64,000 nucleotides of DNA. Origin: an uncultured Flavobacteriales bacterium. Lineage in GTDB: Bacteria; Bacteroidota; Bacteroidia; Flavobacteriales_D; Crocinitomicaceae. The DNA lies in contig CALJKJ010000042.1 of NCBI GenBank assembly GCA_937973685.1, forward strand, positions 1,551 to 65,550, written 5' to 3'. The notes below the pieces were generated by a model. The model saw only the letters and a list, made by a program, of their open reading frames with translations. It had not been told where the DNA came from and ran no database searches. Positions 52,038 to 55,481 of the stretch are shown piece by piece. The position numbers and the translations under genes were made by a program. How positions within the stretch are numbered: the first letter of the stretch is position 1; the number at the start of each line of letters is the position of its first letter.

Positions 52038-55000
52038 TTAGAAAAACGCTTTTAATTCCATTCCGCCAGCATGAACAAAAGGTGAAAGCTGACTTTTTCT
52101 GCCGGAATATTGAATGGCTAATTGCAAACTTTTTGATATGGTTCGTTGATACCCAACGGACCATATTGCGTTTTTACCCGCTTTTAAAGCTTCTAATAAT
52201 TCAAAACCTAATGGAGAATTTGCATTGCCAATAAAATCAATTTGAACGACATTTAATTGAACTTGAAGGCTTCCTTTTTGCGCTTGGTTATATTTGACAG
52301 TACAACCAATATCTTTTACCGTAGCTGATTCTCCCCCTAAATTAATTGCATTTTGTTTCTTCGAATAACGCGCATCCAAACTCAAACGTAAAGTTGTTGA
52401 TGGTTGAAAAACAAGTGATGGTTTCCAAATAAAGTAATTTAATTGATAGTTACGTCCTGTAGTATAATCGACAATAGATTGTTTTTCACCCGTTTCAAAC
52501 GATTGCAATACACTCCATTCTTTGTGAAACGTATACCGACCATTGATACTGTGACTCGCTTTGTATTTACCATCATAACCAGTGGCTAACAATAGTTTTG
52601 ATTGAGAAACATCGTACGAATAATCTGCACTAAAAACCGCACTCGTGCGATTAAAATAAACCGTATGTTTCATATTGGTCGTTGCAGAAATAATATCCTG
52701 GTTATCAATACGTCCTACAAAAGGATTGTACGCGTTGATGCCTTCAAAAAAAGCTGTTTTCCGTTGAATCCGCAAACGACTTTGTGTTGAAAATCGAGCT
52801 AATTGTTTTTTCAATCGGTTGTTTGAAGACGCCCACAAACGTTCTGGTCGAATGGTTAACGATTGATTAAACTCATTCGAATATGTTTTGCTGTATTCAT
52901 TCGAAGGCGTAAAAACACGGATATAACTAGCTTGATCGGCATACGCAGCAATTTCAAATTCATTCAAATCTTTGATATTATCTCCATTATAATCAACCCA
53001 AGTATACACCCCTTGACCATCGTTTACTTTGATATAAATAAACGCTTTTTTCAATTCTAATCCCGCACCTACTTCATAAAAAGTTGTCAATTGCACCGCA
53101 TTCTTTGCAAAGCGCCATTCGTGATCAATCCGACCATTTGTTGTGTTTTCTGGTTGTTGATTGATTAATGTACTATCAACAATTGCAAGTACCCTGTAAT
53201 TACCAATGAGTAATAAGCGTTGGTTTTTCCAATTTTTCTTTGACCACTCAATACTTGCTGTTTTTGCCTTTGCTGCAGTTGCAAATTGGGATAAATTGGA
53301 GCGTCCATCTAACCGTTCTCGGTACGACAATCGAAATTCACCTGATGTTGAATCGCCAAATACGGCATACCCTTGATAATCGAAAAATGAATACGACGCT
53401 GTTGTCAATGTTGTTGCGGATTTATAGGCATTCCATTCTTGATCGGCTTTGTAGCCAACTTTTAGCCAACGGTAACTTTTTGACACATCTACTTTATGGC
53501 GAAAAAACCGATTGCTCGCTACTGTTGTTGCGCTTAACATACTTCCATCTCCTTGAATGCGCAAACCGTTTTTATACCAAGCAACTAAGACTTGACTTTT
53601 TACTCCCGAAAAATCATTTCCAATTTTAAAGTTTTGTGCATTCCATTCAATGGATCCATATTGTTGATGCTTCAACGCTGTTCTGAAGGTTGTATAAATC
53701 TGATTCCCTTCGTAATGTTGATTTCTTGTGTTCCAATCGCGGTCAAATTCAACAGCTCTGTATTGTTCAATTGGTTTAAAAAACGGATCCAATAATTCGC
53801 ATTCGAGTTGGTTTTTCCACGACCATTTTTTAACCGTGTCTTTACCGAAAGGTACGGAATGAGTTAGTTGTGCCCGAAAAGAAAATCCTTTATCGTCTCG
53901 TTTATCTTTCGAAGAAAACGTGTTTTTATCGGTCGTGCTCATAGCGGTTTCAGTCAGTAGGCTCAGGCGATCTGAAAAACGATACTTTCCGCCTAGCGCA
54001 ATTAATTGTTGCTTTTTTGGAGTGATCAACATTTTAACTGGCGCATAATCTCCTTGAGGAATTCCACCAACAGGTTGAAGCCATTTGTACACTTTCCCAA
54101 GCGCATTGAATTTTTCAAAAACATAATCACCATTTCCCTGACCAACGTATGAAAAAGTCACTTTGTAAATAGCTAGTGTTGGATTGATAGATGCAACTAA
54201 AACGGTATCAAATCCCAATGAATCGACTAATTGATACATGACCAAGTTTTCGGAAAAACCAACGGAATCAATGACGAAGCTTTGAGCCAATTCCAAACTG
54301 TCACCAATAGCTGCAAGCAATCCCTTCTGTTGATCGGTTAAATTCTGTTGCAGGGGCTGGTTTTTAACATCTTGTTCCGAATACGCATTGAACCACCAAT
54401 CCATTTTTTTAGTTGTCCCAACTGTTGAAAATTGAAAAAGCGAGCGGGCATAATTTTGATCGGCATATTGAAATTCAATGACAATTCGAATGTCTTTCGT
54501 CATTAAATTACGAGCAGTAAATGTTACTTCGGCAGTGTTGTAATCAATGACATAATCGAATTCTTGACCTCTTTTCATGAGCTTTCCATCAATAAAAACG
54601 CGTTCAGTTCCTGAAAGCACCACAATAAATGGTTCGTTTTCATTCCCGCGCAAACGATATGGTCCTTGATTCCCTTCTATTCCTGTAATTATTTGCCGGT
54701 TGAATTTTCCTTTAGACAACGCACCACTGACTTGTGTTTTAATGGTGTTAGTAGGTTTTGTTTTCCACGTGTATTCGCCTGTTAAACCTTGACCTCGTTT
54801 TTTATACGTCATGAAATAACCTTCGGGTTTACTCAACCAGAAATCACCGACTGTCATTTTAAATTGATCATTAAATAATTGAACAAATACTTGATCAAAT
54901 TCCTGTAATTTATTGGTGTTCCCTTCTGGTTGTATGGGAAGATTATTGTCGGTTACTGAAGCTAATATTTGCAAATTAGGTGCTATGTAACCAGATAATT

Positions 55001-55481
55001 CTAGGTTTAAATTAGAATTTACCGACAAATCCTGTTTGTTTCCAAAAGACACCCCTCGGGCTATACTCCCTGTTTTCTTTAAGCCTGCTGTTTCCATCAA
55101 ATCAATTGGATCATCAGTCGGTGGAATCAAAAATAAATCGCGGTTTCCTTTTGTTACACGGTACAATTGACTGGTATCGCGGTGTTGTTGCATTTGGGCG
55201 AAAGAAATGGGCAAGACACGGTATGTCAAACTGAGACTGTCTATACATTTTTGATTCAAAACTAGTCGTGCTTTTGCATAATCTATTTGATAGTAACTAG
55301 GTAAAAGCACCGCATCACCACAACGAATGACCAGTGAATGGGGTAAGATGGATAAGGTGTCGAATTGAATACTAGCGGTAGAATAAGCGATTTTTTTTGT
55401 GCGTAACGAGCTCAATTGCCCCCAAATTGATTGGGAGAAAAAGACCAAGAATATCATCCAAATAAGTTGTTTGAAACGCAT
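52038..55481 (-). CDS. Large uncharacterised outer-membrane protein with a SprA-like N-terminal half
   Basis: Signal peptide, terminal MELKAFF, beta-rich; [16 protein letters not shown] and DYVIDYN echo SprA motifs. Confidence 0.6.
   Translation of the reverse strand: [1147 protein letters not shown]

What the first reader, a model, noticed from the sequence alone, without database searches (positions are those of the whole stretch)
52038..55481. A half-size SprA-like outer-membrane protein (mini-translocon?)
Seen, by eye against the SprA in this window: [10 protein letters not shown]...[15 protein letters not shown] vs GSVELSFG...IQMNLVGQIGTKLKL; MTVGDF vs [21 protein letters not shown] vs [47 protein letters not shown] vs EGAVKVTAGGIALKEGVDYTVDYNLGRVKI; then IVIEFQY...ARSLF vs IKISIES...SKSML. 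The motifs are in the same order (54380-55080 vs 37560-39290), but SprA's ~350-aa insert is absent. Inference: a 1147-aa remote SprA paralogue, possibly a smaller barrel serving a parallel or ancestral export or assembly function.
Basis: partly seen in the sequence, partly recalled or inferred. Interest (0 to 1): 0.7.

Follow-up and report, generated by a model that had tools for sequence, protein, structure and literature searches.

The report
Giant cap-less SprA-like outer-membrane barrel
This gene encodes an unnamed but phylum-wide Bacteroidota outer-membrane protein predicted to form a pore-like barrel as wide as SprA, the largest known one; it shares one small domain with SprA, so it may be a stripped-down relative of that secretion channel, but what it does is unknown.

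Summary
The ORF is real: window 52038-55481, minus strand, 1147 aa, with a signal peptide and an OMP-type C-terminus (...ELKAFF). It matches no Pfam or NCBIfam model and no PDB sequence. It belongs to a family of more than 3,600 clusters at 50% identity, all about 1150 aa.

- **Fold:** AlphaFold2 (pLDDT 86, pTM 0.75) predicts about 38 long beta-strands with four small inserts. The barrel is SprA-sized, not smaller. It is "half-size" only because SprA's large inserts are absent. The best Foldseek PDB matches are the SprA chains.
- **Similarity to SprA:** With wide alignments, residues 270-368 match SprA 657-750 (P=3e-6, probability 88%). A second copy of the small domain lies at residues 33-89. 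The other three motif pairs align collinearly but at noise level. The shared domain also occurs in a phage-fibre-like ORF and a large secreted-type ORF.
- **Distribution:** The family is single-copy and usually monocistronic. In the samples searched it occurs only in SprA-positive genomes, but many SprA-positive Bacteroidales lack it. It is never within 6-8 kb of sprA in 93 loci.

Verdict: a new giant-barrel family, probably (about 60%) an ancient cap-less SprA relative. The translocon function is untested.

The parts
52038..55481 (-). Whole ORF, 1147 aa (P0001). Member of an unnamed Bacteroidota family of about 1150-aa outer-membrane proteins.
   Evidence: No Pfam, NCBIfam or PDB sequence match. 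3,623 clusters at 50% identity reach E<=1e-3.
55419..55481 (-). Sec signal peptide (residues 1-21), with probable cleavage before Gln22.
   Evidence: Sequence [22 protein letters not shown]. Q22 is invariant in the 75-sequence alignment. Gln at +1 is the usual SPase I product in Bacteroidota (own knowledge). No lipobox Cys.
55215..55406 (-). N-terminal small beta domain (residues 26-89): first copy of the SprA-like small domain. Presumably periplasmic.
   Evidence: AF2 strands 26-89, pLDDT about 80-87. hhalign Q33-89 versus SprA 657-718, P=1.6e-4, probability 50%.
55092..55172 (-). Disordered, poorly conserved linker (residues 104-130).
   Evidence: pLDDT below 50. Mean conservation 0.34.
54684..55082 (-). 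First six predicted barrel strands (residues 134-266), strongly conserved.
   Evidence: DSSP strands 134-147, 153-167, 170-178, 198-216, 228-242, 245-266. The best hhalign hit of this piece is the collinear SprA 183-246, but only at P=0.042.
54891..54947 (-). Very conserved loop TDxNIPIQPxGNTxxLQEFD (residues 179-197), modelled with low confidence.
   Evidence: 7 of 19 columns are >=90% conserved. pLDDT below 50 for 180-195.
54489..54683 (-). Inserted small beta domain (residues 267-331): second copy and the most conserved part of the protein. It is the segment that matches SprA significantly.
   Evidence: 27 of 65 columns are >=90% conserved. hhalign Q270-337 versus SprA 667-716, P=7e-8, probability 94.6%.
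54354..54488 (-). Three strands after the domain (residues 332-376). The SprA match runs on into them.
   Evidence: hhalign hit 1 extends to Q368 / SprA 750. As a separate piece, its best hit in all of SprA is the collinear 727-750, P=0.039.
54015..54353 (-). 113-residue alpha/beta insert (residues 377-489) between strands. No counterpart detected in SprA.
53028..54014 (-). About 16 long barrel strands (residues 490-818), the least conserved part.
   Evidence: DSSP. Conservation 0.45.
52896..53027 (-). 44-residue insert (residues 819-862) with a conserved DxNxDG...E loop (D830, N832, E841, F842). Possible Ca2+ site (inference only).
52041..52895 (-). Last ~13 barrel strands (residues 863-1147) and the C-terminal beta-signal ...GGMELKAFF.
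   Evidence: DSSP. hhalign best hit is the collinear SprA 2285-2425, P=0.008.
37498..37779 (-). Comparator: the part of the window's SprA (residues 657-750) that matches P0001.
   Evidence: SprA identified.
55482..55770 (-). 290-bp upstream intergenic region. It holds the terminator-like hairpin of the upstream nrdA gene (about 55665-55695) and presumably this gene's own promoter. The gene stands alone.
   Evidence: Neighbours are nrdA/nrdB and a convergent M1 aminopeptidase.

Best explanation
P0001 is an integral outer-membrane protein. It is exported by Sec and cleaved before the invariant Gln22. It is then inserted by BAM through its aromatic C-terminus. It is predicted to fold into one very large beta-barrel of about 38 strands.

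It represents an unnamed, single-copy family found across the phylum Bacteroidota. The most conserved part comprises the first six strands, the loop TDxNIPIQPxGNTxxLQEFD and a 65-residue inserted beta domain. That domain and the hairpin after it are shared specifically with the T9SS translocon SprA. The weaker matches on either side are collinear with SprA.

The protein is therefore most likely an ancient relative of SprA that lacks SprA's large inserts, about 1,300 residues in all. Among them are a ~355-residue insert before the small domain and the SprA_N region.

Inferred, not shown: the wide lumen is closed by the protein's own small inserts (N-terminal domain, inserted domain, 113-residue insert, Ca-loop insert) and possibly by an unknown partner. 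It would serve as a gated conduit for some large substrate. It is not a core T9SS part.

Sub-claims: giant OM barrel about 0.9; specific kinship with SprA about 0.6; conduit function about 0.3.
For: - **Gene and family:**
- **No known family:**
- **Fold:** AF2 pLDDT 86.4, pTM 0.75, about 38 long strands from 134 to 1146.
- **Structure search:** Foldseek against the PDB ranks SprA chains 8gl6_A, 6h3i_A and 8gl8_A first (E=2.9e-10 to 1.3e-9, alignments of 1,800-1,900 columns, highest TM-score by query length at 0.23). LptD follows at 1e-8.
- **Profile-profile:** Q270-368 versus SprA 657-750, P=3e-6, probability 88%. Q33-89 versus 657-718, P=1.6e-4. The reversed control gives at best 0.14.
- **Collinearity:** three further pieces, each searched against all of SprA, have their best hit at the collinear place.
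- **Model-to-sequence:** TIGR04189 hits orthologues in 4 of 41 genomes at the same spot. In the organism's own genome the SprA-domain HMM's best non-self hit among 9,205 ORFs is this protein (E=1.4e-3).
- **Phyletics:** every family-positive genome in the samples searched is SprA-positive. That is 34 of 34 (class sample), 140 of 140 (phylum sample) and 61 of 61 (Bacteroidales sample). None of the SprA-negative genomes has the family: 1, 39 and 5 respectively.
- **Conservation map:**
Against: - Only one segment is individually significant, and it is a small domain that also occurs elsewhere. It is found in a phage tail-fibre-like ORF (it overlaps Pfam DUF2460 weakly), in a 1178-aa secreted-type ORF, and as an insert in an NhaC-like ORF.
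- The family HMM never hits SprA at E<=1e-3.
- The N-terminal strand similarity is at background level.
- TM-scores to SprA are low (0.23), and any big barrel gives E of about 1e-7.
- I could not see coordinates, so strand count, barrel closure and the side of the membrane of each insert rest on the DSSP string alone.
- A covariation test of ring closure was uninformative.
- Nothing supports a function. There is no operon partner and no conserved T9SS neighbour. 85 of 146 SprA-positive Bacteroidales genomes lack the family.
- The SprA-negative genomes represent only a few independent lineages.
Confidence: 0.55

Rival explanations
1. It is an unrelated giant barrel that shares only a mobile domain with SprA. 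The family would be an independent large OMP lineage that acquired, twice, a widespread small beta domain also used by SprA and by phage tail fibres. The rest of the resemblance would be generic beta-barrel similarity.
For: - The domain occurs in unrelated proteins. NCBIfam's tail_tube_6XGR model touches the same SprA stretch.
- From the family's side, the phage-fibre-like copy scores better (E=6.7e-5) than any SprA.
- Segments outside the domain have P=0.008-0.23. The N-terminal windows rank 6th to 8th of 116.
- An earlier agent of this scan found no detectable relation (e1-4348641).
Against: - The significant alignment runs past the domain into the next hairpin.
- Three independent pieces each find their best SprA hit at the collinear place.
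- SprA is the top structural hit.
- In this genome the domain is found only in SprA and this protein.
- The barrel sizes are similar, about 38 versus 36 strands.
Confidence: 0.3
2. It would be a dedicated second T9SS-type translocon ('mini-translocon'). It would export a subset of CTD-bearing cargo, using PorV/PorP-like carriers and the GldLM/PorLM motor.
For: - The family was found only in SprA-positive genomes.
- The similarity to SprA lies in the most conserved part of the protein.
- PorE-like (TPR-PD40-OmpA) genes lie nearby in 9 of 93 loci.
- T9SS cargo genes lie 7-10 kb away in this window.
Against: - It lacks SprA's large inserts, including the SprA_N region. SprA's extracellular cap assists CTD binding (PMC10994853), and about 1,150 residues of which roughly half are barrel strands leave little room for one.
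- No similarity to the SkpA/SprE-binding N-terminus of SprA was found.
- It is absent from more than half of T9SS-positive Bacteroidales.
- sprA is not within 6-8 kb in any of 93 loci, and it has no co-directional partner.
- T9SS genetics has not reported it: it is absent from the component list in PMC5445135.
Confidence: 0.12
3. It is an envelope-biogenesis or housekeeping barrel. It could be a conduit or scaffold for lipid, LPS, lipoprotein or polysaccharide, or an uptake pore. It would resemble LptD-type machines more than a protein secretion pore.
For: - It has a housekeeping-like pattern: single copy, monocistronic, phylum-wide, and lost in reduced and host-associated genomes.
- LptD is the next best structural match.
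- Convergent neighbours are often OmpA-type or coiled-coil envelope proteins.
- Bacteroidota OM machines are known to carry many unrecognised subunits (bioRxiv 10.64898/2026.10.03.756453).
Against: - It has no LptD/OstA or other Pfam signature.
[quoted passage not shown] Those barrels have 27, 22 and 8 strands.
- Absence from many free-living SprA-positive genomes argues against an essential role.
Confidence: 0.15
4. The single giant barrel is a modelling artefact. The chain would fold as two or more smaller barrels or as an open sheet.
For: - I saw only the DSSP string and global scores.
- Multi-barrel chains exist in Bacteroidota (Solan et al., bioRxiv 10.1101/2021.02.17.431615).
- The covariation test gave no S1-S38 signal.
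Against: - A pTM of 0.75 for 1147 residues, with pLDDT above 90 in most strands, argues for one rigid body.
- The strands are long (12-23 residues) and run without a linker from 490 to 1146.
- The best structural matches are the largest barrels, with alignments spanning the whole chain.
- The covariation test had no power, because S1-S4 are nearly invariant.
Confidence: 0.08

Closest known systems
SprA/Sov, the T9SS outer-membrane translocon (NCBIfam TIGR04189; Pfam PF14349 SprA_N; PDB 6H3I, 6H3J, 8GL6, 8GL8)
   Same: - Giant single-chain OM barrel (36 strands in SprA, about 38 predicted here).
- A small beta domain plus the following hairpin are shared at profile level (P=3e-6).
- The weak matches are collinear.
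- SprA is the best Foldseek hit.
- Same phylum, and the family was only seen in SprA-positive genomes.
   Different: - Half the length.
- None of SprA's large inserts. About 355 residues are missing between strand 6 and the small domain, and the SprA_N region is absent.
- No match to TIGR04189 or PF14349 at family thresholds.
- A second copy of the small domain at the N-terminus.
- Its own inserts (113 aa, and a Ca-loop-like 44 aa).
- Not linked to T9SS genes, and dispensable in many T9SS-positive lineages.
LptD (26-27-strand LPS translocon) and other large barrels (MtrB, SlpA, SusC/TonB-dependent transporters)
   Same: Large OM barrels. Next best Foldseek hits (E=1e-8 to 1e-6).
   Different: - No sequence or profile similarity.
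- No beta-taco, plug or POTRA domain.
- About 10-16 more strands.
Unnamed superfamily of predicted barrels with at least 40 strands (MB-family 002) in Solan et al. 2021 (bioRxiv 10.1101/2021.02.17.431615)
   Same: A predicted single OM barrel larger than any solved one, found by sequence and contact-map analysis.
   Different: The paper's main text names no protein, taxon or function for it. Whether it is this family is unchecked.
Small 'x-V-x-V-x-G-x-x-L-x-x-G-x-DY-x-VDY-x-x-G-x-I-x-F' beta domain of phage tail-fibre-like proteins (overlaps part of Pfam DUF2460, PF09343)
   Same: Same motif as the two small domains of P0001 and SprA 657-718.
   Different: It occurs there in soluble, repeated form and is not inserted in a barrel.

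Membership tests
SprA/Sov (T9SS translocon) | Match to NCBIfam TIGR04189 above its cut-off (200 bits) | tested here: not met
   No NCBIfam hit at E<=1 for P0001. Orthologues get only local hits of 19-23 bits at model positions 603-670.
SprA/Sov (T9SS translocon) | Pfam SprA_N domain (PF14349) | tested here: not met
   No Pfam hit at E<=1. The window's SprA has the domain at 564 bits.
SprA/Sov (T9SS translocon) | Single transmembrane barrel of 36 strands | tested here: inconclusive
   The AF2 DSSP string gives about 38 long strands (36-40 depending on how bulges are read).
SprA/Sov (T9SS translocon) | Large extracellular cap formed by long inserts, with a lateral opening for PorV | tested here: not met
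   All inserts together come to about 400 residues. The hhalign alignment skips SprA 301-656. A lateral opening is not testable here.
SprA/Sov (T9SS translocon) | Conserved N-terminal periplasmic region bound by SkpA/SprE | tested here: not met
   There is no significant alignment of P0001 1-130 to SprA 1-150. Instead, the N-domain matches SprA 657-718.
SprA/Sov (T9SS translocon) | Required for T9SS and present in all T9SS-positive genomes | tested here: not met
   Absent from 85 of 146 SprA-positive Bacteroidales genomes and 22 of 162 SprA-positive genomes in the phylum sample. The requirement itself is not testable here.
Remote SprA-related barrels (homology, not family membership) | Significant profile-profile match beyond a single mobile domain | tested here: inconclusive
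   The match of P=3e-6 covers the domain plus the next hairpin. Other pieces have P=0.008-0.04, each at the collinear place. The reversed control gives 0.14.
BAM-dependent outer-membrane beta-barrel proteins | Sec signal peptide, beta-rich chain, C-terminal aromatic beta-signal | tested here: met
   Signal peptide 1-21. The C-terminus ...ELKAFF is conserved as ...RAFF. The model is all-beta.
LptD / Bacteroidota LPS-translocon subunits (LptN, LptQ, LptV) | LptD/OstA Pfam domains, or a 22- or 8-strand barrel as described for LptN, LptQ and LptV | tested here: not met
   No Pfam hit. The strand number does not fit.

The most novel reading that the evidence does not exclude
Bacteroidota would possess a second, cap-less giant outer-membrane channel, as wide as the T9SS translocon and descended from the same ancestor. 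It may be closer to the ancestral form, with SprA as the elaborated one. It would move a large substrate across the outer membrane independently of the known T9SS core. Its gate would be built from the two small SprA-type domains and the invariant loop 179-197.
Probability: 0.2. Interest if true: 0.85.

Novelty: new variant of a known kind. Interest (0 to 1): 0.6.

Why it matters
SprA's 36-strand barrel is cited as the largest known single-chain barrel, in a 2026 preprint for example (10.64898/2026.03.07.710327), and it is the only protein-conducting pore of the T9SS. This family is predicted to be just as wide and is present in most free-living Bacteroidota sampled here. It has more than 3,600 clusters at 50% identity, yet it has no Pfam or NCBIfam model. 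I found no mention of SprA paralogues or SprA-like proteins in the searchable literature.

If it is a true SprA relative, it gives a minimal version of the translocon barrel. That would help with three questions:
- which parts of SprA are pore and which are cap;
- how such wide barrels are sealed;
- how the T9SS pore evolved.

If it is a conduit, it is an unrecognised route across the Bacteroidota outer membrane. Either way it is a good target for deletion and cryo-EM in Flavobacterium johnsoniae. The sampled genus that looks like Flavobacterium carries one copy.

Tried and rejected
1. Sequence searches of P0001, and of the family profile, against PDB chains found nothing.
2. hhalign self-comparison of the first alignment showed no internal repeat. 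The two small domains are linked only through SprA.
3. AF2 of the window's SprA fragment 130-860 was meant to compare the strand pattern before and after the small domain. The only admissible alignment rows were at least 73% identical, and the model is unusable (pLDDT 37).
4. Mean-field DCA on 362 family sequences (Meff 294, reduced alphabet) was meant to test ring closure between the first and last strands. Adjacent hairpins were only partly recovered. The N-terminal strands are too invariant to covary. The C-terminal signal is probably a gap artefact. No conclusion is possible.
5. A crude amphipathicity-based strand prediction for SprA was too imprecise.
6. Identity with the newly described Bacteroidota LPS-translocon subunits was rejected, because their barrels have 27, 22 and 8 strands. 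PorF/PG0534 was rejected because it is a 92-kDa TonB-receptor-like protein.
7. A link to gliding was examined. Within Bacteroidales only 1 of 29 GldJ-less genomes has the family. However, about 100 non-Bacteroidia genomes have the family and no GldJ, so the link is rejected.
8. A conserved operon was sought in 93 loci. Recurrent neighbours lie mostly on the opposite strand. None is present in more than 27% of loci. sprA is never within the flanks.
9. Literature searches for SprA paralogues or SprA-like proteins found no relevant paper.
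Full report
**The object.** The ORF at window 52038-55481 (minus strand) encodes 1147 residues.
- It starts with a typical Sec signal peptide ([22 protein letters not shown]).
- Gln22 is invariant in a 75-sequence alignment. This fits the Bacteroidota habit of Gln at the mature N-terminus (own knowledge).
- It ends in ...GGMELKAFF, an OMP-type aromatic C-terminus conserved as ...RAFF.
- The gene stands alone. Upstream lie nrdA/nrdB with their own terminator-like hairpin and a 290-bp spacer. 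Downstream, a convergent M1 aminopeptidase gene abuts it stop-to-stop.
- The window's SprA is at 32395-39747 (minus strand), 2450 aa, TIGR04189 at 2398 bits. It is 83% identical to Fluviicola taffensis SprA over residues 130-860. The organism is therefore a Fluviicola-like member of the Crocinitomicaceae.

**No known family, but a very large one.**
- P0001 has no Pfam or NCBIfam match at E<=1.
- It has no PDB sequence match, either as a single sequence or as a profile.
- More than 1,900 proteins match in the 90%-clustered collection, and every name a source gives among the 120 listed is 'hypothetical protein'.
- 3,623 clusters at 50% identity match in the exhaustive search, 1,951 of them at E<=1e-30. 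The best 150 are nearly all full-length, about 1150 aa.

**Fold.**
- AlphaFold2 on the 75-sequence alignment gives mean pLDDT 86.4 and pTM 0.75.
- The DSSP string shows, in order:
  - a small N-terminal beta domain (26-89);
  - a disordered linker (104-130);
  - long strands from 134 to 1146.
- Reading one-residue breaks as bulges, I count 38 strands. This is an even number, which fits both termini being periplasmic.
- By that parity the periplasmic turns are mostly 2-7 residues and the extracellular loops are longer.
- There are four inserts: 267-331 (small beta domain), 377-489 (alpha/beta), 819-862 (with a conserved DxNxDG...E loop), and the low-confidence but very conserved loop 179-197.
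- I had no access to coordinates. Strand number (36-40), closure and the sidedness of the inserts are therefore inferences from the string.
- Foldseek against the PDB ranks SprA chains first: 8gl6_A 2.9e-10, 6h3i_A and 8gl8_A 1.3e-9. These alignments run to 1,800-1,900 columns and have the highest TM-score by query length, 0.23.
- LptD (1e-8), MtrB, SusC and SlpA follow. The margin over generic big barrels is modest.

- *Curated SprA model.* A genome search with TIGR04189 gave weak extra hits (model positions 603-670, E=1e-5 to 1e-4 per genome) in 1160-1198-aa ORFs of four genomes. A search with the family profile showed these ORFs to be orthologues of P0001.
- *My SprA HMM.* It hits the same spot in about 30 of 75 family members, and hits the N-terminal domain in a few.
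- *First profile-profile comparison (75 versus 29 sequences).* P=8.9e-4.
- *Second comparison.* After I added 20 family members and 20 SprAs from other classes of the phylum, it gave the following:
  - Q270-368 versus SprA 657-750: P=3e-6, probability 88%.
  - Q33-89 versus SprA 657-718: P=1.6e-4.
  - Q976-1144 versus SprA 2286-2444: P=0.022.
  - Q62-283 versus SprA 67-301: 201 columns, P=0.23.
- *Control.* A column-reversed SprA alignment gives at best P=0.14.
- *Pieces searched separately against all of SprA:*
  - small domain: P=7e-8;
  - following strands: best hit 727-750, P=0.039;
  - strands 1-6: best hit 183-246, P=0.042;
  - C-terminal third: best hit 2285-2425, P=0.008.

  Each best hit is at the collinear place.
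- *Window scan.* The N-terminal similarity is not better than that to some other strand-rich SprA windows or their reversals. It ranks 6th to 8th of 116.

So motif pairs 4 and 5 are real. Pairs 1-3 are suggestive only through their order.

**Caveat on the shared domain.**
- The family profile also hits three ORFs in other genomes:
  - a phage tail-fibre-like ORF with two copies of the motif;
  - a 1178-aa secreted-type ORF;
  - an insert in an NhaC-like antiporter ORF, very strongly (6.7e-14).
- The fibre-like ORF carries Pfam Gp53-like_C, and the motif overlaps part of DUF2460.
- NCBIfam's phage tail_tube_6XGR model touches SprA 670-728.
- The domain is therefore mobile. Sharing it does not by itself prove that the barrels are homologous.
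- Three points argue for more than a shared domain:
  - The match continues into the next hairpin.
  - The other best hits are collinear, and the barrel sizes are similar.
  - In this genome, the SprA-domain HMM's best non-self hit among 9,205 ORFs is P0001, at E=1.4e-3.
- I put specific kinship with SprA at about 0.6. An earlier agent of this scan, looking at the same family in another genome, found the ~38-strand barrel but no detectable relation to SprA (e1-4348641). The wider alignments used here change that result.

**Conservation.** The most conserved parts are the small domain (27 of 65 columns at >=90%), loop 179-197, strands 1-3 and the 819-862 insert. The N-terminal domain, the linker and the middle of the barrel vary. 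The functional centre is thus the very region that resembles SprA.

**Distribution.**
- The family is single-copy in 34 of 41 Bacteroidia genomes.
- It is in 140 of 201 genomes across the phylum, where SprA is in 162.
- It is in 61 of 151 genomes in the order that holds locus L122, labelled Bacteroidales, where SprA is in 146.
- Every family-positive genome has SprA. None of the SprA-negative genomes (39 of one family, 5 in the Bacteroidales sample, 1 tiny genome) has the family. These are few independent lineages.
- Many SprA-positive genomes lack it, so it is not a core T9SS part.
- Within Bacteroidales it is nearly confined to GldJ-positive genomes. Outside class Bacteroidia, about 100 genomes have the family and no GldJ. 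It is therefore not tied to gliding.

**Neighbourhood.** In 93 loci no neighbour is shared by more than 27% of loci, and recurrent ones lie mostly on the opposite strand:

| Neighbour | Loci (of 93) |
|---|---|
| SBP_bac_5 | 25 |
| Exo_endo_phos | 17 |
| Coiled-coil protein | 17 |
| Coiled-coil + OmpA protein | 15 |
| Two-component system: histidine kinase | 12 |
| Two-component system: response regulator | 8 |
| PorE-like TPR-PD40-OmpA | 9 |

sprA is never within the 6-8 kb flanks. Its position 12 kb away in this window is not a conserved linkage.

**Literature.**
- The 36-strand SprA barrel is cited as the largest known (PMC10994853; bioRxiv 10.64898/2026.03.07.710327).
- Solan et al. (10.1101/2021.02.17.431615) predicted an unnamed superfamily of barrels with at least 40 strands. 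Its identity with this family is unchecked.
- The subunits of the enlarged Bacteroidota LPS translocon do not fit, and neither does PorF.
- Searches for SprA paralogues or SprA-like proteins returned nothing relevant.

**Mechanism.**
- *Shown or well supported:* a Sec-exported, BAM-type OM protein predicted to form one very large barrel.
- *Inferred:* with only about 400 non-strand residues, the lumen must be closed by its own small inserts, by a partner, or both. The invariant N-terminal strands, loop and small domain would form the working site or gate. The substrate is unknown.
- I rank the readings in this order:
  1. A gated conduit for a large substrate that is not part of the core T9SS.
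  2. A housekeeping envelope role.
  3. A dedicated T9SS mini-translocon.

  None of these is tested.

Noticed in passing
window 52035-52040: The stop codons of the M1 aminopeptidase gene (+, TAA ending at 52037) and of the barrel gene (-, TAA at 52038-52040) abut with no base between them. There is no room for a terminator between the two convergent genes.
   Followed up: partly
L125 1031-2806 (G142:C3): A 591-aa NhaC-type Na+/H+ antiporter ORF carries an internal ~70-residue segment (KGSETITLNGEILKRGENSDYEIDYLTSVIDF...TEFEYATVDY). It matches the small domain of this barrel family at E=6.7e-14. It could be a domain insertion in a loop or an assembly chimera.
   Followed up: no
L168 864-3134 (G031:C13): A 756-aa ORF has a hydrophobic N-terminal segment and looks by eye like a VWA-type protein. 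It contains 'SLGNVTLPLNGSLITGGQNLFGIKTQTQY', which matches SprA model positions 184-218 at E=6e-8. A SprA N-terminal strand motif thus sits in an unrelated protein.
   Followed up: no
window 52896-53027 (residues 819-862): Conserved loop [16 protein letters not shown] (D830, N832, E841 and F842 at >=90%). It resembles a DxDxDG/EF-hand-type calcium site in what I take to be an extracellular insert.
   Followed up: partly
G055:C1:112914-115031 and G127:C1:2143138-2145207: One family of small genomes (2.1-2.4 Mb) has a divergent, shorter version (1013-1061 aa). It matches only profile positions ~127-376 and ~810-870. This again singles out the N-terminal strands with the small domain, and the Ca-loop insert, as the conserved core.
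   Followed up: no
L126 1291-2454 (G087:C3): A phage tail-fibre-like ORF (Gp53-like_C) carries two tandem copies of the same 'V-Y-K-N-G-Q-L-L...DY-x-x-N-x-x-S-G-x-I-T-F-S' motif found in SprA and in this family.
   Followed up: partly
window 55665-55695 (- strand): A GC-rich hairpin followed by a T-run (aaatcccttctaatcggagggatttttgtt) lies just after nrdA. It is probably the nrdAB terminator, and it separates that operon from the barrel gene.
   Followed up: no
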